From an uncultured Altererythrobacter sp. (GTDB lineage Bacteria > Pseudomonadota > Alphaproteobacteria > Sphingomonadales > Sphingomonadaceae), in assembly GCA_913056125.1 (NCBI GenBank), contig CAJXNC010000012.1:18861-82860 (forward strand): DNA of 64,000 nucleotides. Reading direction: 5' to 3'. The position numbers were made by a program, and so were the translations under genes. The first letter of the stretch is position 1. Each line of letters opens with the position of its first letter. This document shows positions 22,314 through 27,997 of this stretch, one piece after another. The notes beneath the pieces were generated by a model. That model saw only the letters and a program-made list of their open reading frames with translations, was not told the origin of the DNA and ran no database searches.

Positions 22314-22856
22314 ATGCGTATCGAACACATTCCTACGGGGGACAATCCGCCCGAAAGCCTCAATGTCATCATCGAGGTGCCGACCGGCGGAGAACCGGTG
22401 AAGTACGAGTTCGACAAGAAGAGCGGCGCGCTGTTCGTCGACCGCATCCTGCACACGCCTATGCGCTATCCGGCAAATTACGGCTTCGTGCCGCACACGT
22501 TGTCACCCGATGGCGACCCGCTCGATGCGCTGGTGATCGCCCGCTCGCCCTTCATGGCCGGCTGCGTGGTGCGGGCACGGCCAATCGGCGTGCTCAACCT
22601 CGAAGACGAACATGGCGGCGACGAGAAGCTGATTTGCGTGCCGATCGATTCGACCTTCCCCTATTATTCGGATGTCGGCGAAACCAAGGACCTGCCCTCG
22701 ATCATCTTCCAGCAGATCGAGCACTTCTTCACCCACTACAAGGACCTCGAAAAGGAAAAGTGGGTCCGTGTCGGTGCCTGGGGCGATGCCGCGGAAGCGC
22801 GCAAGGTCACGCTCGAAGCGATCGAACGCTACGAGGCGAACAAGGCCGAGGGGTAG
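22314..22856 (+). CDS. ppa: Inorganic pyrophosphatase (family I)
   Basis: Frame of ORF 22266..22856, with the start at ATG 22314. NVIIEVPTGGEPVKYEFDK...YPANYGFVPHTLSPDGDPLDALV. Confidence 0.95.
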   Translation: MRIEHIPTGDNPPESLNVIIEVPTGGEPVKYEFDKKSGALFVDRILHTPMRYPANYGFVPHTLSPDGDPLDALVIARSPFMAGCVVRARPIGVLNLEDEHGGDEKLICVPIDSTFPYYSDVGETKDLPSIIFQQIEHFFTHYKDLEKEKWVRVGAWGDAAEARKVTLEAIERYEANKAEG

Positions 22857-22865
22857 GCAATACCC

Positions 22866-22900
22866 GGCCTTGCGCATTGGATTGATGCGCCGGCCTTTTT
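22866..22900 (+). terminator. Rho-independent terminator of ppa
   Basis: GGCC(TT)GCGCAT - TGGATTG - ATGCGC(C)GGCC followed by TTTTT. Begins 10 nt after the ppa stop. Confidence 0.7.
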
Positions 22901-22975: not shown

Positions 22976-24970
22976 ATGTCCGACGTGTTCCTTTCCTACG
23001 CGCGCGCAGACCAGGCCAGGATCGAGAGTCTTGCCAAGGCTCTCGAAGAGCTTGGGCATAGCGTCTGGTGGGATCGCAATATCGAAGGCGGAAGCCATTT
23101 CGCCAAGGATATCGAGCGCGAAATACGGGCCGCAAGGGCGGTAGTCGTCGCCTGGTCCGCCCATTCGATCGAAAGCCACTGGGTCCTCGATGAGGCCGGA
23201 TATGCGCGAGACGAAGGCAAGATCGTGCCGATCACGCTCGACGGGACCCAGCAACCATTCGGCTTTCGCCAGGTGCAGGCACTCGATTTTTCCGAATGGC
23301 CCGCATCGCGGTCCGGCCTGGCCGGGCTGGAGAGGGCAGTCGCGCGGCTGATCGGCGAAGCGCCGCACGAACTGGTCGAGGCGCCCGCCGCTGCGCCGGG
23401 CAAGCGGTCGAACAAGCGCGCGCTGGTGCTTGGCGGGACAGTCGCGGCCGCGCTGCTGGTGGCAGGCGGCACCTATGTCGCAATGAACGGCACGACCGCC
23501 GAAACAGTGGAGGTGGCCAGCGAACCGGTGGCTTTGGCCATACTGCCTTTCAGCGTTTCAGGCGATGCGGGAGACGGCGACAACGCCCTCACAAACGGTT
23601 TCTCCGGCGCCCTCAATACCAATCTCTCCGGCCTTGCCGGCCTCGCTTTGGTCTCCAACACCTCCACCACCCAGCTTGCCGAGGAGGGGCTGTCGATTGC
23701 TGCAATCGGCGAGCGTCTCGGCGTGGACTATCTCGTCGAAGGCTCGATGCAATTCAGCGGAAGCGAGGTGGTCCTCGATATTGCGCTGATCGAGGCAAGA
23801 TCGTCGCGGCAGCTATGGAACGAGCGCTTCCGGGAAGATCGCGGCTTTCTCGATGTGCTTATGCTTCGTACCAGCAATGCGCTGGCATCCATGCTGCAAT
23901 CGCGCTTCGGGGTCGGCCAGGGCAGCACGATTGCGCATGTCGATGCGAATCCCCGGGCTTACGAGGCCTATCTGCGCGGAATGGAGCTGCTCCTGTCGCG
24001 GCAGTTCGGCGACAACCGGCGTAGCGCCTTTGCCCAGTTCCAGCGCGCCGTCCAGATCGATCCAGATTTTGCGGCGGCACAAGCCGCTTTGGGATTGACC
24101 CTTGCACTTGGCGATCCTGCCGCTTTTTCGCTGTCACCGTCCGAAGGCGAGGCGTTGGCGACTGCTTCTATCGATAACGCGCTGGAACGCGACCCGGGCA
24201 ATCTCATGGCGCAGGTGGCGCGCGAATTGATGCCCACGACCTTTGGCGGAGATGTCGGCGCAGCGATTGTCAATTTGCAAGAGCTCACCCAAGACCATCC
24301 CGACTATGCGCTCGGGCAATACGCACTCGGCCTGAACCTTACTGCCGTAGGTGAAAGTGAAGCTGCCTTGCAGCATTACCGGGAGGCACTGCGCATCGAT
24401 CCCGTCGATACAAGCTACAACAATTTCTACACATTATCGCTCGTCCTGGCGGGCAATTATGACGAGGTACGAAGCGCGGCGATGGAATGCACCGATTGCT
24501 TCCTCGTCAACGACGTATGGTATGGCGGGTTGATGTGGCTCGCGGACGACGAGCAATATCGATCCGATGCTTCCCTGTGGCGCGAACGGTGGACCACCAT
24601 TTTGCCCGAGGAAGAGCGGTTCCTGCCTTCTCTGGTTCTCCCAGCCTATCGGGAGAACAGGCCCCTTCCTGTGACGGCTGCGGAACTGGGTGTGAATGAC
24701 GTAGCACCAGTGATCCTGGCCGCTTTCGGCCAGTATGAGGACGCGTTATCCGTGCTGGGCCAACAGGGAGAGGAGTATCGCGGGCTGGACCAAACCGCGC
24801 GATTACTCGATTCGCCCAGTCCGGATTGGCCCGAAGAAGTGCGCGCCGATCCGCGCTATCACGCCGTGTTCGACGACCCCGTTTCGCAGAGCATTCTCGA
24901 GGAACGACGCAAACGCGGCAATTTACACAGTTTTCCGGTCTTTCCGGTGAGGCCGTACGAAGGCCCCTGA
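22976..24970 (+). CDS. TIR-domain transmembrane protein: N-terminal cytoplasmic TIR, one TM helix, periplasmic TolB-N-like module and TPR repeats
   Basis: 664-aa ORF. TIR_2 pattern: SDVFLSYARADQ...VWWDRNI...AVVVAWSAHSIESHWVLDEAGYA (putative catalytic Glu73). Basic GKRSNKR precedes the TM ALVLGGTVAAALLVAGGTYVAM. VALAILPFSVSGD...LVSNTST...IGERLGVDYLVEGS...LIEARSSRQLWNERF is the TolB-N-like module seen in TPR receptors. The C-terminus has TPR-like AYEAYLRG...FQRAVQIDPDF...HYREALRIDP. Confidence 0.85.
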   Translation: MSDVFLSYARADQARIESLAKALEELGHSVWWDRNIEGGSHFAKDIEREIRAARAVVVAWSAHSIESHWVLDEAGYARDEGKIVPITLDGTQQPFGFRQVQALDFSEWPASRSGLAGLERAVARLIGEAPHELVEAPAAAPGKRSNKRALVLGGTVAAALLVAGGTYVAMNGTTAETVEVASEPVALAILPFSVSGDAGDGDNALTNGFSGALNTNLSGLAGLALVSNTSTTQLAEEGLSIAAIGERLGVDYLVEGSMQFSGSEVVLDIALIEARSSRQLWNERFREDRGFLDVLMLRTSNALASMLQSRFGVGQGSTIAHVDANPRAYEAYLRGMELLLSRQFGDNRRSAFAQFQRAVQIDPDFAAAQAALGLTLALGDPAAFSLSPSEGEALATASIDNALERDPGNLMAQVARELMPTTFGGDVGAAIVNLQELTQDHPDYALGQYALGLNLTAVGESEAALQHYREALRIDPVDTSYNNFYTLSLVLAGNYDEVRSAAMECTDCFLVNDVWYGGLMWLADDEQYRSDASLWRERWTTILPEEERFLPSLVLPAYRENRPLPVTAAELGVNDVAPVILAAFGQYEDALSVLGQQGEEYRGLDQTARLLDSPSPDWPEEVRADPRYHAVFDDPVSQSILEERRKRGNLHSFPVFPVRPYEGP

Positions 24971-24980
24971 GAAAGTGAGG

Positions 24981-25095
24981 CCACTCCCGCCTGATCGGCG
25001 TGCTCACGCTCGATGACGAGCATGGAGGCGAGACCAAGGACCTGCCTCCTATCATCTTCCAGCAGATCGAACGCTACGAGGCGGAGAGGGCGTAA
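24981..25095 (+). pseudogene. Decayed duplicate of the ppa 3' part (two internal in-frame deletions)
   Basis: 24988-25095 reads RLIGVLTLDDEHGGETKDLPPIIFQQIERYEAERA*. The resident ppa reads RPIGVLNLEDEHGG[20 aa]ETKDLPSIIFQQI[35 aa]ERYEANKAEG*. The deletions are bounded in the resident copy by short repeats GGCGA and GATCGA. Confidence 0.85.
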
Positions 25096-25188: not shown

Positions 25189-25218
25189 GCTACATTTGTG
25201 GCACGCTACAAATGTAGC
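25189..25218. promoter_or_regulatory. Perfect 11-bp inverted repeat GCTACATTTGT-N8-ACAAATGTAGC, BlaI/MecI-type operator (TACA/TGTA dyad)
   Basis: Read directly. Ends 20 nt upstream of the BlaI-family repressor start at 25238. Confidence 0.7.
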
Positions 25219-25237
25219 AGCCAAGTGTGGGGTGCCG

Positions 25238-25627
25238 ATGTTGAAGAAATTGCCACCGCGGGAACGGGAGATTGTCGACCTTCTATACGAGAGGGGAGAC
25301 CTGACTGTCACCGAGATATCAGAGGCCTTGTCCGGACAGCCTAGCGGCTCTGCCGTTCGGACCATGCTCAGCAGGCTCGAGCAGAAGGGCTTTGTCCGTC
25401 GCACCGATGGCCCCAAAGGCCACCTCTACCATCCGGCCGTACCCGACAACCAGGCACGCAAGACTGCCCTCAAGGAACTCGTACGCGTGTTCTTCCGTGG
25501 CTCTCCGGTTGGCGCTGCGACGGCGTTACTCGGCATGTCCGAACAGCTAGACGATGAGCAGCTTGACGAGCTTGAAGCGATGATTGCCCAGGCCCGAGCC
25601 GACAGGGCCAGGGAATCCGGGGAATGA
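25238..25627 (+). CDS. BlaI/MecI/CopY-family transcriptional repressor
   Basis: Frame of ORF 25196..25627, with the start at ATG 25238. MLKKLPPREREIVDLLYERGDLTVTEISEAL...SAVRTMLSRLEQKGFVRR is a winged-helix pattern of the BlaI family. Confidence 0.88.
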   Translation: MLKKLPPREREIVDLLYERGDLTVTEISEALSGQPSGSAVRTMLSRLEQKGFVRRTDGPKGHLYHPAVPDNQARKTALKELVRVFFRGSPVGAATALLGMSEQLDDEQLDELEAMIAQARADRARESGE

Positions 25628-26706
25628 TCGTTCTCCTCGCCGCGAAGTCCTTCGTGATTGCGGGCGCAACCCTGCTGATCCTGCGGCTTATGAGTGACCG
25701 CTCCGCCTCGGATCGAAGCTGGATCGCCCACCTCGGCCTGGCTGCAATCGCTGCGCTGCCGCTTGTATCAGCGCTGTTTCCGCCGCTGGAGGTTGCGAGT
25801 TCCTACGCATCGGCCCTGGCGCCGGCTGTTTCTGTTTCCTCCACCCAACTTGCCTCGTCAGTCTGGCCACAGACAGCGACAGACTGGCTGCTCCTTGCTT
25901 ACCTATTGCCGGCACTGCTTCTCATCGCGCATTTAATGTTGGCATTGCTCCGACTGGCGTTGCTGACAGAGCGTGCCCGCCCTGTGACCGACGATCGGTG
26001 GCTTGCGATTTTGTCCAGCGCGCAGCATCGGATCGGACTTTCGAAGAGTACTGCGTTGCTGGCCAGCGAAGGGATTGCATCGCCGGTGAGCTGGGGCGCT
26101 TTGCGGCCAAAGATCCTGCTCAATGCGGATGCCGTGGCGAGCCAAGAATGCGCGGAAGCCGTCGTGGCGCACGAACTGGCGCATATCGCGCGGGCTGACT
26201 GGCTGAAGCTCATCCTGGTCCGGCTGAGCGTGGCTCTGTTCTGGTTCAATCCATTGGCATGGATGTTGGCGCGAGAAGCGCACCAGCTGCGCGAGGAAGC
26301 GGCCGACGATGCCGTGCTGGCCGCGAATATCGAGGATACGGCCTACGCGAGCCTTCTGGTCAACACAGCCCGTAACCACGGCATCGGAATCGTTTTCGGA
26401 ACACATGGCGTCGCGCCAACACGCAACGCGCTTGCCCAACGCGTCAAAAAGGTTCTCGATCGCGACCTGAACCGCTCACCCGGAAGAGCATCCTGGGCAA
26501 CGGCTGTCGCCCTGTTTGCGGTTGCCCTGTCCACGCCGCTGATGACCCTGCAATTGACTGACACGACGCCCTCGCACCCGAATTCCGTGCTGTTTGCAAA
26601 GGGCGAGAATGCAGAAATCATCGTCTTCGAACTTCGCGCACCACACGCCAATCCCGGCTTCACACCGGCATCCTCGCAAGAGGACCGAGCAGGGGAAGAG
26701 GAGTAA
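25624..26706 (+). CDS. M56-family (BlaR1-like) membrane metalloprotease lacking a C-terminal penicillin-binding sensor domain
   Basis: 360-aa ORF overlapping the repressor gene by 4 nt. Has N-terminal TM helices and the HEXXH motif in VVAHELAHIARADW. It ends after one more TM helix and a ~60-aa tail. Confidence 0.85.
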   Translation: MIVLLAAKSFVIAGATLLILRLMSDRSASDRSWIAHLGLAAIAALPLVSALFPPLEVASSYASALAPAVSVSSTQLASSVWPQTATDWLLLAYLLPALLLIAHLMLALLRLALLTERARPVTDDRWLAILSSAQHRIGLSKSTALLASEGIASPVSWGALRPKILLNADAVASQECAEAVVAHELAHIARADWLKLILVRLSVALFWFNPLAWMLAREAHQLREEAADDAVLAANIEDTAYASLLVNTARNHGIGIVFGTHGVAPTRNALAQRVKKVLDRDLNRSPGRASWATAVALFAVALSTPLMTLQLTDTTPSHPNSVLFAKGENAEIIVFELRAPHANPGFTPASSQEDRAGEEE

Positions 26707-26713
26707 TCGCAGA

Positions 26714-27997
26714 ATGACCAGTTTCAGAATCACGGGCGCGAGCGGGATGTTGTATCGCGCGCTTGCCGCAGCCGTTCTTCTCCTCACTCCCATCGCTGCC
26801 GCCGCACAGGATGTGGAGCAGCGCGCGAGGGAAATTGTGGAAGTGCTGCATGGAGAGGCGGTCTACACTGACGTGTTCGACGACGTCTTTACCGCACGGA
26901 CTTCGCAAGAGCGGTTCTCTGCCATGTTTGACCCGGTAGCCGCCCAATACGGCCCTTTGGTCGGGCTGGAAGAAGTTGAAGCGACATCGCCAACCGCCGC
27001 CCGATTCGCCTTCCGTTTCGAGCGCGGGTTCGCTTGGGGCGCATTCAATCTTTCCGGCGAAGCGCCGTTCCGCGTGGCAGGGATCATTGTGAACAACACC
27101 GGCCCGGCCGATGACACAGCCGAAAAACTGTTGGCCGATTTCCAGGCATTACCGGGAGAGTCATCAATCCTGATTGCACCGCTAAATGGTGGTGCGCCTG
27201 TGCTGTCATACAATGCCGACCGGCAGCTGGGCATCGGGTCCGCCTTCAAGCTGTACATACTTTCCGCGCTCGCCCGCCAGGTTGCAGCAGGAGAGCGCAG
27301 CTGGAGCGATGTCGTGCCGCTCGACAGCAGCGGACCTTCGGGCATCACAAGCACGTGGCCTGAAGGCGGGCCGACCACGCTTCACACGCTCGCCACACAG
27401 ATGATCTCGGTCAGCGACAATAACGCCACCGACCAGCTTCTGTCATTGCTCGGGCGTAGCGCAGTGGAGGCAGAGGTTGCCGCATCGGGTCATTCCGATC
27501 CGGCACTGCTGGTTCCCTTCATGGCGGCGCGCGAGATGATCGCGCTGAAGATCGACGGCGATATCGACGCCTATCGCGCCGCAGATGCGGCCGGCCGCCT
27601 CGCCGCGCTTGAAGCCACGGCCGACAGTGAAATTGACATGTTCGAATTCATGATGACCTTTACCGGCAACCCCACGGCGCTCGATATCGAATGGCTGGTG
27701 TCGGGTGAGGACATGGCCAATCTCATGCGCCGGATCAGTGAGCTCGAAGACCCCACGGCACGCAGTATCATGGCAGTGAACACCAATGTTCCTGACCATT
27801 TGGCTGGGGATTGGCAATATTTCGGTTACAAAGGTGGTTCGGAACCCGGGGTGATCAACTTGAGCTGGCTGCTGCAGGATCATCACGGCGGATGGCATGT
27901 GGTGACCATGAGCTGGAACAACCCGGAGGCGGAAATCATCCTCCCGCAGTTCAGAGATCTCTCAGCGCGCGCCATCGCGCTGGCCCGGCCACAATAA
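26714..27997 (+). CDS. Secreted serine hydrolase with class A beta-lactamase fold (Cpe/LpqF-like two-domain protein)
   Basis: Frame of ORF 26594..27997, with the start at ATG 26714 (signal-like LYRALAAAVLLLTPIAAAAQ). SxxK = SAFK (GIGSAFKLYIL), SDN = SVSDNNATD, KTG-like = YKGGSEPG. Confidence 0.8.
   Translation: MTSFRITGASGMLYRALAAAVLLLTPIAAAAQDVEQRAREIVEVLHGEAVYTDVFDDVFTARTSQERFSAMFDPVAAQYGPLVGLEEVEATSPTAARFAFRFERGFAWGAFNLSGEAPFRVAGIIVNNTGPADDTAEKLLADFQALPGESSILIAPLNGGAPVLSYNADRQLGIGSAFKLYILSALARQVAAGERSWSDVVPLDSSGPSGITSTWPEGGPTTLHTLATQMISVSDNNATDQLLSLLGRSAVEAEVAASGHSDPALLVPFMAAREMIALKIDGDIDAYRAADAAGRLAALEATADSEIDMFEFMMTFTGNPTALDIEWLVSGEDMANLMRRISELEDPTARSIMAVNTNVPDHLAGDWQYFGYKGGSEPGVINLSWLLQDHHGGWHVVTMSWNNPEAEIILPQFRDLSARAIALARPQ

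What the first reader, a model, noticed from the sequence alone, without database searches (positions are those of the whole stretch)
22976..24970. Membrane-spanning TIR protein with Toll-like-receptor-style topology: best candidate for an undescribed single-gene sensing/effector module
**Architecture.** The 664-aa product has three parts.
- An N-terminal TIR_2-type domain (SDVFLSYARAD...AVVVAWSAHSIESHWVLDEAGYA). The Glu at the position that is catalytic in NAD-cleaving TIR domains is present (E73 by my count).
- A single TM helix (res ~149-170), preceded by the basic stretch GKRSNKR, so the TIR domain is predicted to be cytoplasmic.
- A ~490-aa extracytoplasmic part made of a TolB-N-like module and TPR repeats.

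**Why it stands out.** A ligand-binding repeat ectodomain wired through one helix to a cytoplasmic TIR is the logic of eukaryotic TLRs. It is not the layout of the characterised bacterial TIR systems (Thoeris ThsB, TIR-STING, TIR-SAVED, TIR-APAZ), which are cytoplasmic and multi-gene. I see no ThsA, SLOG, Macro, SIR2 or cyclase partner nearby.

**Context.** The gene carries its own upstream region after the intact ppa terminator and sits in an insertion footprint (see the ppa-duplication finding), so it is accessory. Possible roles are envelope-stress or phage-triggered NAD depletion, or production of a nucleotide signal. All of these are inference.
Basis: partly seen in the sequence, partly recalled or inferred. 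Interest (0 to 1): 0.72.

Follow-up and report, generated by a model that had tools for sequence, protein, structure and literature searches.

The report
Membrane-spanning bacterial TIR receptor, solo copy
This is an intact, horizontally inserted gene for an inner-membrane protein that joins a periplasm-facing sensor through one helix to a cytoplasmic, enzyme-type TIR domain; it belongs to a large uncharacterised family that in many relatives sits beside secreted proteases and a nucleotide-gated membrane effector.

Summary
ORF 22976-24970 (+) encodes 664 aa. It has a TIR_2 domain (E=8e-25), an invariant catalytic-type Glu73, one TM helix (149-170, N-in) and a ~490-aa periplasmic part. That part is an alpha/beta module of the TolB-N/LpoB type plus TPR repeats, a two-part layout like CadC's sensor.

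The gene is an insertion. Relatives with 81-85% identical flanking genes lack it, and a decayed ppa 3' remnant lies just downstream.

- **Family size:** 671 clusters at 50% identity, and at least 551 matches in species-representative genomes.
- **Shared sensor:** the same sensor module sits behind wHTH, Ser/Thr-kinase and adenylate-cyclase outputs.
- **Partner-linked clade:** one large clade is about 90% linked to a secreted trypsin-like protease. It often also has secreted caspase-like proteins and a SLOG-SLATT membrane protein, which makes it Thoeris-like with an outward-facing sensor.
- **The window's clade:** it has no partners, and none occurs in the 64 kb. Related partner-less clades form tandem paralogue arrays with a conserved TIR and a diversified ectodomain.

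The most likely mechanism is inferred, not shown: a periplasmic cue clusters the receptor, the TIR cleaves NAD+, and this yields a nucleotide signal or NAD+ depletion. I found no published description. I rate it a new variant of a known kind. "Single-gene" holds only for this clade.

The parts
22976..24970 (+). Complete gene for the 664-aa TIR / TM / periplasmic-sensor protein (stop TGA at 24968-24970)
   Evidence: ORF list. The same gene is called on an independent assembly. Homologues start at the same MSDVFLSYARAD N-terminus.
22985..23299 (+). TIR_2 domain match (residues 4-108). The folded TIR domain spans about residues 1-126 (22976-23353).
   Evidence: Pfam PF13676, E=8.3e-25. AF2 shows a beta-alpha flavodoxin-like pattern at pLDDT >90. 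Foldseek hits to TIR structures 8qlp_E, 4w8h_A and 9ugj_F. Sequence hits to PdTIR, AbTir and BtpA.
23192..23194 (+). Codon of Glu73 (GAG), the catalytic-type glutamate in the motif SHWVLDE
   Evidence: codon. Invariant in 85/85 family members. Aligned with the conserved Glu of PdTIR and BtpA.
23399..23419 (+). Basic juxtamembrane stretch GKRSNKR (residues 142-148), on the cytoplasmic side
   Evidence: 4 K/R on the N-terminal flank against 0 on the C-terminal flank of the TM helix. Homologues carry an SRRR-type motif at the same place.
23420..23485 (+). Single transmembrane helix (residues 149-170)
   Evidence: The only hydropathy window above 1.5 (Kyte-Doolittle, 19 residues) in the protein. 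AF2 models a helix at 156-170.
23522..23911 (+). Periplasmic alpha/beta module of the TolB-N / LpoB / GNA1162 type (residues ~183-312), with the family motif A188-x-x-P191-F192, G256 and W281
   Evidence: AF2 at pLDDT ~90-97. Foldseek hits 4r40_C, 4hrv, 4q6l and 3w1e, and the N-terminal subdomain of CadC 3ly7/3ly8. G256 and W281 are invariant in 85/85.
23951..24916 (+). Periplasmic TPR / helical-repeat region (residues ~326-647). The last ~160 residues are clade-specific.
   Evidence: Pfam TPR_11/TPR_1/TPR_2. AF2 is all-helical here. PDB TPR hits. This is the least conserved part of the protein, with median identity 0.17-0.23.
22314..22856 (+). Intact inorganic pyrophosphatase gene (ppa) immediately upstream; marks the insertion boundary
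   Evidence: Gene call with PF00719. Syntenic in relatives.
22872..22900 (+). Terminator-like hairpin plus T-run after ppa, separating ppa from the TIR gene
   Evidence: GCGCATTGGATTGATGCGC followed by CGGCCTTTTT.
24991..25095 (+). Decayed remnant of a ppa 3' end (LIGVLTLDDEHGGETKDLPPIIFQQIERYEAERA*) just downstream of the TIR gene; the insertion footprint
   Evidence: Direct repeats D1-D3, 78-87% identical to 22584-22859. Alignment. The in-frame translation shows two internal deletions at microhomologies.

Best explanation
**What it is.** The gene encodes a bitopic (N-in / C-out) inner-membrane receptor-enzyme.
- A cytoplasmic TIR domain of the enzymatic AbTir/PdTIR/BtpA type, with invariant Glu73, is tethered by one TM helix to a ~490-aa periplasmic sensor.
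- The sensor is a TolB-N/LpoB-like alpha/beta module followed by TPR repeats. This is the CadC-type two-part sensor, and other bacteria place it behind wHTH, Ser/Thr-kinase or adenylate-cyclase outputs.

**Shown here.** Architecture, topology signals, conservation, insertion status, family distribution and gene neighbourhoods.

**Inferred.**
- A periplasmic cue changes the oligomeric state of the ectodomain. The cue could be a ligand, a protein partner or a proteolytic event at the envelope.
- This brings the cytoplasmic TIR domains together. That is how all characterised TIR NADases are switched on.
- NAD+ is then cleaved to an ADPR/cADPR-type product.
- In the sister clade, the adjacent cytoplasm-facing SLOG-SLATT protein most plausibly reads that product and permeabilises the membrane. 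The adjacent exported trypsin-like and caspase-like proteases act on the sensor side. This amounts to a Thoeris-like pathway whose sensor looks outward.

**The window's copy.** It belongs to a partner-less clade and has no partner within 64 kb. It either signals to an unlinked effector or acts by NAD+ consumption itself. The likeliest role is envelope-level detection of attack or damage (phage or other), leading to growth arrest.
For: - **Domains and fold:**
- **Conservation:** E73 and 14 other residues are invariant in 85/85 (13 in the TIR, plus G256 and W281 in the alpha/beta module).
- **Topology:** a single TM helix with the positive-inside pattern, conserved family-wide. The homologous ectodomain is found C-terminal to wHTH, kinase and cyclase domains that must be cytoplasmic (BLASTP E=1e-31 and 4e-27; rhizobial cyclases).
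- **Family size:** 671 clusters at 50% identity at E<=1e-30 over TIR+TM+alpha/beta. At least 551 relatives in species-representative genomes.
- **Protease neighbours:** a secreted trypsin-like protease (PF00089, E=2.7e-27, with signal peptide) lies next to the receptor in 38-40 of 79 loci. Secreted Peptidase_C14 proteins occur in 8-10 loci.
- **SLOG-SLATT neighbour:** a DUF4231/SLATT protein occurs in 9 loci. Its N-domain folds as a YpsA-type SLOG (2nx2, TMt 0.74). Two of three contexts found independently from the SLATT side again contain the TIR receptor.
- **Clade structure:** the linkage is clade-specific, about 41 of 45 in one clade and none in the window's clade (the tblastn trypsin hit in L054, lies in a neighbouring small group).
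- **Literature:** YpsA-clade SLOG domains sense cADPR variants, SLATT is predicted to be an ADPr-derivative-gated membrane effector, and TIR-SLATT neighbourhoods are known (PMC9503650). Thoeris type VII is TIR plus a SLATT effector using cADPR (bioRxiv 10.64898/2025.12.03.692087).
- **Receptor-repertoire pattern:** TIR identity among tandem paralogues is 0.56-0.67, against 0.16-0.36 for the TPR and C-terminal parts.
- **Accessory status:** empty sites in relatives and the ppa remnant.
Against: - No enzymatic or phenotypic data exist for any family member.
- The window's copy has no partner gene in 64 kb. Its closest relatives also lack partners, so extrapolating from the linked clade (TIR domains ~53% identical) may not hold.
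- Family members sit in housekeeping contexts, not defence islands. None was found on phages or viral contigs, and only one on a plasmid-class replicon.
- The sensor module is a generic signalling module, which fits non-immune signalling equally well.
- The 3D position of E73 could not be checked, because model coordinates are not exposed.
- The SLOG assignment rests on a Foldseek E-value of only 1e-3, although TMt is 0.74.
- The 79 loci are the best-scoring 80 of at least 551, and ORFs and clusters were called crudely.
Confidence: 0.55

Rival explanations
1. It is a non-immune envelope or environment sensor. The protein would be an ordinary one-component transmembrane signalling receptor in which TIR replaces the cyclase, kinase or wHTH output. 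It would make an NAD-derived second messenger that regulates physiology such as envelope homeostasis, motility or biofilm, rather than killing or arresting the cell.
For: - The same ectodomain is used by wHTH, Ser/Thr-kinase and adenylate-cyclase proteins, including 134 rhizobial plasmid-borne cyclases.
- One family member fuses TIR with a cyclase domain (P0041).
- Neighbourhoods are housekeeping, and in Sphingomicrobium marinum the neighbours are PilZ and GGDEF-EAL genes.
- There is no association with phages or defence islands.
Against: - No non-immune TIR second-messenger pathway is known in bacteria.
- The partners of the sister clade (SLOG-SLATT, caspase-like, trypsin-like) are typical conflict-system components.
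- Tandem arrays with fast-diverging ectodomains and patchy, inserted distribution look more like an immune repertoire.
Confidence: 0.25
2. The TIR is a non-catalytic scaffold. It would only mediate protein-protein assembly, as in animal TLR/MyD88 signalling, recruiting other cytoplasmic proteins when the sensor is engaged. No NAD+ chemistry would be involved.
For: TIR domains are assembly modules in animals. No TIR-specific cytoplasmic partner is excluded by the data.
Against: - The Glu that is catalytic in TIR NADases is invariant in 85/85, together with the surrounding SxWVxDE motif.
- The closest solved relatives by sequence are NAD+-cleaving bacterial TIRs: PdTIR, AbTir and BtpA.
- A nucleotide-sensor (SLOG) partner is linked in relatives.
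- The window holds no second TIR protein.
Confidence: 0.08
3. It is a stranded, functionless passenger. The gene would have been carried in by the recombination event that duplicated the ppa 3' end. Lacking its partners, it would no longer do anything useful in this genome.
For: - The insertion footprint and empty sites in relatives.
- No partner genes in 64 kb.
- No sigma-70-like promoter was found upstream.
Against: - The ORF is intact over 664 codons, and every family-invariant residue is preserved. The neighbouring ppa remnant, by contrast, has visibly decayed.
- A whole clade of partner-less members exists, several amplified in tandem, so partner-less copies are maintained.
- The identical protein occurs on several independent assemblies.
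Confidence: 0.07
4. It is a host-directed Tcp-like virulence factor. The TIR domain would be delivered to eukaryotic cells to interfere with TLR signalling, as proposed for TcpB/BtpA, TcpC and PdTLP.
For: The best sequence matches among solved structures are PdTIR and BtpA/TcpB.
Against: - The TIR is N-terminal, has no signal peptide and lies on the cytoplasmic side of a TM anchor.
- The hosts are free-living marine and soil Sphingomonadales, Caulobacterales and Steroidobacteraceae.
- Genomes carry multiple paralogues.
Confidence: 0.02

Closest known systems
Thoeris systems (ThsB TIR plus a ligand-gated effector), especially type VII (TIR + SLATT effector ThsH, cADPR signal) and type I (SLOG-SIR2 ThsA)
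   Same: - An enzymatic-type TIR with a conserved Glu.
- In the sister clade, the TIR gene lies next to a protein that combines a YpsA-type SLOG (nucleotide-sensor fold) with SLATT-type TM helices. This is the Thoeris logic of a TIR product opening or activating an effector.
   Different: - Here the TIR protein is membrane-anchored and carries a 490-aa periplasmic sensor. Characterised ThsB proteins are cytoplasmic.
- Exported trypsin-like and caspase-like proteases are extra components.
- The window's own copy has no effector nearby.
- Pfam ThsB_TIR matches only at E=0.023, below its cut-off. PADLOC sees only domain-level TIR hits.
Bacterial TIR NADases AbTir, PdTIR (PdTLP) and BtpA/TcpB
   Same: They are the closest solved TIR domains by sequence (3h16 E=1.6e-4; 7uwg/8g83; 4c7m/4lzp/4lqc). 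E73 aligns with the conserved catalytic-type Glu of PdTIR and BtpA/TcpB.
   Different: Those proteins are soluble, with coiled-coil or short N-terminal regions. None has a TM helix or a periplasmic sensor. Identity is low (about 25-30% over 70 residues).
CadC / ToxR-type one-component transmembrane receptors
   Same: - The same overall plan: N-terminal cytoplasmic output, a single TM helix and a C-terminal periplasmic sensor.
- The best Foldseek match of the whole model is the CadC periplasmic domain (3ly7/3ly8/3lya, E about 5e-5). It has the same order of an alpha/beta subdomain followed by a helical subdomain.
- wHTH proteins with a homologous ectodomain exist (P0084, E=1e-31).
   Different: - The output is a TIR domain instead of a DNA-binding wHTH.
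- The structural match to CadC is moderate (TMt 0.40, rmsd ~11 A), with no sequence-level similarity to CadC itself.
Rhizobial class III adenylate/guanylate cyclases and Ser/Thr kinases carrying the 'TolB-like' (COG5616) + TPR module
   Same: The sensor module is homologous (residues ~172-550, 25-31% identity). There are 134 plasmid records annotated as cyclases. Kinase P0085 matches at E=4e-27. JGI names family members 'TolB-like protein/TadD'.
   Different: The output domain differs (cyclase or kinase rather than TIR). As far as I could find, those proteins are also largely uncharacterised with respect to ligand.
Animal Toll-like / IL-1 receptors
   Same: A repeat-containing extracytoplasmic sensor, one TM helix and a cytoplasmic TIR. 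Paralogue families have a conserved TIR and diversified ectodomains. In the sister clade the receptor is associated with exported serine proteases, which recalls the protease cascade upstream of Drosophila Toll (analogy only).
   Different: - Reversed polarity: here the TIR is N-terminal and the protein is type II, whereas TLRs are type I.
- The ectodomain is TPR/CadC-like, not LRR or Ig.
- The TIR is of the bacterial enzymatic TIR_2 type rather than a MyD88-recruiting scaffold.
- There is no evidence of common descent of the whole architecture.

Membership tests
TIR domain superfamily (Pfam TIR_2, PF13676) | Profile match above the curated gathering score | tested here: met
   88.1 bits against a cut-off of 28, E=8.3e-25, residues 4-108. 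PF01582 TIR also scores 26.6 against 21.3.
TIR domain superfamily (Pfam TIR_2, PF13676) | Flavodoxin-like beta-alpha fold matching solved TIR structures | tested here: met
   The AF2 N-terminal domain has pLDDT >90. Foldseek matches Hydra TRR-2 TIR 4w8h_A (TMt 0.83, rmsd 2.6), SPARTA TIR 8qlp_E (rmsd 3.0) and SARM1 TIR 9ugj_F (TMt 0.69).
Catalytic (NAD+-cleaving) TIR enzymes (SARM1 / AbTir / ThsB type) | Conserved glutamate at the catalytic position | tested here: met
   E73 is invariant in 85/85. It aligns with the conserved Glu in the PdTIR and BtpA alignments. Its position in a 3D pocket could not be checked, because no coordinates are exposed.
Catalytic (NAD+-cleaving) TIR enzymes (SARM1 / AbTir / ThsB type) | Measured NAD+ hydrolase or cyclase activity that depends on self-association | not testable with these tools
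   Needs biochemistry (NAD+ consumption, LC-MS of ADPR and cADPR isomers, E73A control).
Thoeris anti-phage system | TIR gene adjacent to an effector gene carrying a signal-binding domain (SLOG, Macro, SLATT etc.) | tested here: not met
   For the window, tblastn finds no SLOG-SLATT, trypsin or caspase homologue in 64 kb, and PADLOC finds nothing within +-10 kb. The feature is met in 9 of 79 related loci and in 2 of 3 SLATT-anchored contexts, but not in the window's clade.
Thoeris anti-phage system | ThsB-type TIR profile match (PF08937 / PADLOC ThsB models) at family level | tested here: not met
   PF08937 gives E=0.023, 15.5 bits against a cut-off of 21.2. The PADLOC ThsB models match weakly, 8e-5 at best, and only over the TIR core.
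Thoeris anti-phage system | Protection against phage, with phage-triggered signal production | not testable with these tools
   Requires plaque assays and metabolite detection.
ToxR/CadC-type one-component transmembrane receptors | N-terminal cytoplasmic output domain, single TM helix, C-terminal periplasmic sensor | tested here: met
   Hydropathy and the positive-inside pattern. There is no N-terminal signal peptide, since the TIR starts at residue 4. The homologous ectodomain lies behind cytoplasmic wHTH, kinase and cyclase domains.
ToxR/CadC-type one-component transmembrane receptors | OmpR/ToxR-type winged-helix DNA-binding output | tested here: not met
   No Trans_reg_C match. The N-terminal domain is TIR_2.
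ToxR/CadC-type one-component transmembrane receptors | CadC-like periplasmic fold (alpha/beta subdomain plus helical subdomain) | tested here: inconclusive
   CadC entries 3ly8, 3lya, 3ly9 and 3ly7 rank 1, 3, 4 and 5 in Foldseek (E 5e-5 to 1.3e-4, probability 1.00). However, TMt is only 0.38-0.42 and rmsd is 11-12 A. There is no sequence-level match to CadC.
Animal Toll-like receptors | LRR ectodomain, type I orientation, scaffold TIR that recruits TIR adaptors | tested here: not met
   The ectodomain is an alpha/beta module plus TPR. The TIR is N-terminal, so orientation is type II. The TIR is of the bacterial enzymatic type. Only the general logic is shared.

The most novel reading that the evidence does not exclude
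The family may be a bacterial counterpart of the Toll-pathway logic.
- Exported proteases (trypsin-like, caspase-like) would generate or unmask a periplasmic signal.
- A single-pass receptor would read that signal.
- Its cytoplasmic TIR would then make an NAD-derived nucleotide that opens a SLOG-SLATT pore.
- Partner-less, tandemly amplified members such as the window's gene would form a diversified repertoire of outward-facing sensors. This would be extracytoplasmic pattern recognition in bacteria, feeding a common TIR signal.
Probability: 0.18. Interest if true: 0.9.

Novelty: new variant of a known kind. Interest (0 to 1): 0.68.

Why it matters
All characterised bacterial TIR systems sense events inside the cell. 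A large family (hundreds of 50%-identity clusters) places an enzymatic TIR behind a periplasm-facing sensor. If it works as proposed, bacteria can couple detection at the envelope (phage adsorption or injection, cell-wall damage, proteolysis, competitors) to NAD-derived signalling.

- **A testable system.** The linked clade offers a complete set of parts for experiment: exported proteases, receptor and SLOG-SLATT effector.
- **A new output for an old sensor.** The widespread 'TolB-like + TPR' sensor module also controls many uncharacterised cyclases, kinases and transcription factors. TIR would be a new output domain for it.
- **A comparison with animal receptors.** The family is a concrete case for asking whether the receptor / TM / TIR arrangement of animal TLRs arose more than once.

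For this genome alone the finding is more modest: one accessory, partner-less family member inserted next to ppa.

Tried and rejected
- **Genome scan query.** The scan with the 50-sequence alignment failed because no stretch was conserved enough. I repeated it with 12 closer sequences.
- **Literature.** Searches for COG5616, CadC+TIR, single-pass TIR and SLATT/SLOG/TIR/trypsin found no description of this architecture. The 2015 paper that defined SLOG and SLATT is not held, so prior mention there cannot be excluded.
- **Two surveys read directly.** The TIR survey PMC7075850 mentions only actinobacterial TIR-TPR proteins with no TM helix. The 2025 Thoeris survey mentions TM helices only in effectors.
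- **Defence context.** PADLOC on the protein gives only TIR-core hits. PADLOC on 55 window ORFs gives generic cross-hits: LptB to mad3/mad8/AriA, a response regulator to SduA, BlaI to a CARF-HTH model. I rejected these as evidence of a defence island.
- **Mobility.** No matches on phages or viral contigs. Only one TIR-containing match was on a plasmid-class replicon. I therefore rejected a phage or plasmid origin.
- **Other neighbours.** The other recurrent clusters (Met-aminopeptidase, CinA-like, YhhQ-like, thioesterase, a sigma-54 activator) occur in 10 loci or fewer. They look like lineage synteny, not partners.
- **Clustering artefact.** Antisense ORF clusters overlapping the TIR gene were recognised and discarded.
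- **3D test of E73.** This was not possible because model coordinates are not exposed.
- **Promoter.** The sigma-70 scan found nothing upstream of the gene. That is uninformative for an alphaproteobacterium.


Full report

Yes.
- An ORF runs from ATG 22976 to TGA 24968-24970 on the + strand and encodes 664 aa. The identical protein is called on independent assemblies.
- Pfam gives TIR_2 at residues 4-108 (E=8.3e-25, 88 bits against a cut-off of 28), the general TIR model above its threshold, and several TPR models at ~351-377 and ~446-478.
Codon 23192-23194 is GAG = Glu73, inside ESHWVLDEAGY.
- The protein has a single hydrophobic window, residues 149-170. It has 4 K/R in the 15 residues before it (GKRSNKR) and none after.
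- An AlphaFold2 model built on a 50-sequence alignment is confident (mean pLDDT 86.5, pTM 0.73). Confidence is low only in the linker/TM segment 137-180.

**2. What are the parts?**

*N-terminal domain.*
- Foldseek matches solved TIR domains: Hydra TRR-2 (TMt 0.83), SPARTA TIR-APAZ (rmsd 3.0 A) and SARM1 TIR (TMt 0.69).
- By sequence, the nearest solved TIRs are the bacterial NAD+-cleaving group: PdTIR 3h16, AbTir 7uwg/8g83 and BtpA/TcpB 4c7m/4lzp/4lqc. E73 aligns with their conserved Glu.
- From established knowledge, not tested here, this Glu is the catalytic residue of SARM1, AbTir, ThsB and plant TIRs.

*C-terminal 490 residues.*
- The best whole-model match is the periplasmic sensor domain of CadC (3ly7, 3ly8, 3lya; E about 5e-5).
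- The alpha/beta module (residues ~183-312) also matches the TolB N-domain, GNA1162, LpoB and FlgT.
- The rest is a TPR superhelix.
The two-part arrangement is that of a CadC-type sensor, although the CadC match is only moderate (TMt ~0.4).

**3. Topology**

Three independent lines support N-in / C-out.
- The positive-inside pattern holds here and in about 45 of 50 homologues, typically as ...SRRR followed by the TM helix.
- There is no N-terminal signal peptide, since the TIR starts at residue 4.
- The same ectodomain is homologous over ~320 contiguous residues to the part that follows the TM helix in wHTH proteins (P0084, E=1e-31) and in Ser/Thr kinases (P0085, E=4e-27). It also matches 134 plasmid records, the annotated ones among those listed being adenylate/guanylate cyclases. 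Those output domains need DNA or ATP and must be cytoplasmic.

**4. Accessory status**

- The backbone in relatives is prmC-prfA-hisS-LLM monooxygenase-ppa-(MscS/BON)-small ORF-lptB-rpoN. These relatives have an LLM gene 81-85% identical to the window's: Alteraurantiacibacter aestuarii, a 2.7-Mb genome, and two metagenome contigs.
- They have neither the TIR gene nor the blaI-blaR1-bla cluster.
- In the window, a terminator-like hairpin follows ppa (22872-22890).
- Directly after the TIR gene lies a 105-nt relic, 24991-25095. It translates in frame to LIGVLTLDDEHGGETKDLPPIIFQQIERYEAERA*. That is the ppa C-terminus with two internal deletions at GGCGA and GATCGA microhomologies.
- The gene therefore arrived by a recombination event that replaced and duplicated the ppa 3' end.
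- The nearest homologue is only 50% identical (Altererythrobacter litoralis) and sits in a different context, between ccmB and a peptidase M24 gene.
- No relatives were found on phages or viral contigs, and only one on a plasmid-class replicon.

**5. The family**

*Size and spread.*
- The word-indexed search found about 100 clusters with the same ~650-aa layout.
- The exhaustive search with residues 1-320 found 671 representatives (50%-identity clusters) at E<=1e-30. Nearly all of the top 150 align across TIR+TM+alpha/beta.
- In species-representative genomes there are at least 551 relatives. They are mostly Sphingomonadales, Caulobacterales (Marinicaulis, Caulobacter), Steroidobacteraceae, Lysobacterales and various MAGs.

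*Conservation.*
- E73 and 14 other positions are invariant in 85/85: F5, S7, Y8, D12, W31, W32, D33, G39, W60, S67, W69, V70, A74, G256 and W281.
- Conservation is strongly asymmetric. Median identity to the window is 0.53 for the TIR. It is 0.26, 0.23 and 0.17 for the alpha/beta, TPR and C-terminal parts.

**6. Gene neighbourhoods (new here)**

I called ORFs in the 79 loci and clustered them.
- **Trypsin.** The only widely recurrent neighbour is a trypsin-like S1 protease (PF00089, E=2.7e-27; TAAHC...GDSGGP; Sec signal peptides). It lies directly adjacent in 38-40 loci. It is either convergent 190-400 bp downstream or immediately upstream on the same strand, sometimes in 2-3 copies.
- **Larger cluster.** A subset has two exported Peptidase_C14 (caspase-like) proteins of ~1100 and ~700 aa, then trypsin, then the TIR receptor, then a convergent ~600-aa protein.
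- **SLOG-SLATT.**
  - That last protein matches DUF4231/SLATT weakly, and some sources name it a 'SMODS and SLOG-associating 2TM effector'.
  - Its AF2 model (pLDDT 85, pTM 0.86) has four long TM helices. Its N-terminal domain is best matched by YpsA (2nx2, TMt 0.74), then DprA, ShosA, LOG/MCP proteins and the TRPM2/TRPM4 channels.
  - It is therefore a SLOG-SLATT protein.
- **Independent check.** Starting from the SLATT side, two of three contexts again contain the TIR receptor: Roseibacterium beibuensis, and Sphingomonas sp. JC676 together with trypsin.
- **Clade pattern.** On an NJ tree the linkage is clade-specific. About 41 of 45 members of one large clade have at least one partner.
- **Partner-less clades.** No other clade has an adjacent partner by ORF clustering. 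This includes the window's clade (window, A. litoralis, Sphingomicrobium nitratireducens paralogues). The one exception by tblastn is a trypsin hit in L054. Instead, these clades often form tandem arrays: five in a row in a Marinicaulis MAG (L023), and three in S. nitratireducens (L005) and S. marinum.
- **The window itself.** It contains none of the partner families and no defence genes within +-10 kb.

**7. Mechanism**

*Shown.* Architecture, topology signals, an invariant catalytic-type residue, the shared sensor module, clade-specific linkage to exported proteases and to a cytoplasm-facing SLOG-SLATT protein, and the insertion.

*From the literature.*
- YpsA-clade SLOG domains sense cADPR variants. 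SLATT is predicted to be an ADPr-derivative-gated membrane effector. TIR-SLATT neighbourhoods recur (PMC9503650).
- Thoeris type VII is TIR + SLATT with cADPR as the signal. Type IV is TIR + caspase-like protease (bioRxiv 10.64898/2025.12.03.692087).

*Inferred.*
- A periplasmic event changes the receptor's oligomeric state.
- This assembles the TIR domains and switches on NAD+ cleavage.
- In the linked clade, the SLOG-SLATT protein reads the product, and the exported proteases act upstream on the sensor side.
- For the window's partner-less copy, the output is either an unlinked effector or NAD+ depletion itself.
- I put 0.55 on this overall model. Rivals are non-immune second-messenger signalling (0.25), a non-catalytic scaffold (0.08), a stranded passenger (0.07) and a host-directed Tcp-like factor (0.02).

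**8. Comparison with what is known, and novelty**

- It works most like a Thoeris TIR sensor. It fails the Thoeris membership test at this locus, because there is no adjacent effector and the ThsB profile scores below its cut-off.
- It has the plan of a ToxR/CadC receptor but lacks the wHTH output.
- It resembles TLRs only in logic: polarity is reversed, the ectodomain differs and the TIR is enzymatic.
- I found no paper describing a membrane-anchored bacterial TIR with a periplasmic sensor, or the trypsin / caspase / SLOG-SLATT association. One key paper could not be read.
- I classify it as a new variant of a known kind.

**9. Caveats**

- The 79 loci are the top-scoring subset of at least 551.
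- ORF calling and single-linkage clustering are crude, and the tree is a simple NJ tree.
- The SLOG call rests on a borderline Foldseek E-value.
- The 3D environment of E73 could not be inspected.
- Nothing here is functional evidence.

Noticed in passing
window 24991-25095: A 105-nt in-frame relic of the ppa C-terminus (LIGVLTLDDEHGGETKDLPPIIFQQIERYEAERA*). It has two internal deletions flanked by microhomologies (GGCGA, GATCGA). It marks the recombination that brought in the TIR gene.
   Followed up: yes
window 25196-27997: The blaI - blaR1 (Peptidase_M56) - class A beta-lactamase cluster just downstream is also absent from the syntenic region of relatives. It is therefore a second insertion at the same ppa-proximal spot.
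   Followed up: partly
window 25189-25218: A near-perfect palindrome, GCTACATTTGTGGC / GCTACAAATGTAGC (14-nt arms, 2-nt spacer), lies upstream of the 87-aa blaI gene call (window 25364-25627). From memory, it looks like a BlaI/MecI-type operator.
   Followed up: no
window, ORF not located (outside 16.7-34.8 kb): One window ORF hits the PADLOC PycTM models (E=1.5e-14) and '2TM effector' models (E=3.8e-9). Pfam shows a second MscS-type channel somewhere in the window. I did not identify which ORF gives these hits or whether this is more than a shared-domain cross-hit.
   Followed up: no
L023:3748-14137 (Marinicaulis MAG OFTM310); also L005:3654-10019, L003:8018-13489: Back-to-back arrays of 3-5 paralogous TIR-TM-TPR genes with 0-4 nt spacing in L023. 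The TIR domains are 57-67% identical, but the TPR parts only 16-29%.
   Followed up: partly
P0041 (835 aa, Gammaproteobacteria MAG): A family member carries both TIR_2 and an adenylate/guanylate cyclase domain (PF00211), plus TPR, in one protein.
   Followed up: no
P0361 (2837 aa) and P0395 (2283 aa): Very long proteins contain 5-7 separate matches to the alpha/beta sensor module (query residues ~162-292). They are either fused tandem gene calls or true multi-module proteins.
   Followed up: no
L088:9001-16326 (Sphingomonas panacisoli CP042306.1): Here the SLOG-SLATT homologue has no TIR receptor nearby. It lies next to a Peptidase_C1 gene, a zinc-ribbon Ser/Thr kinase and an FHA protein. This suggests the effector can be wired to other sensors.
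   Followed up: no
L003:7279-15701 (Sphingomicrobium marinum): The three tandem TIR receptors are flanked by two PilZ-domain genes and a GGDEF-EAL gene, which hints at a link to c-di-GMP signalling in that genome.
   Followed up: no
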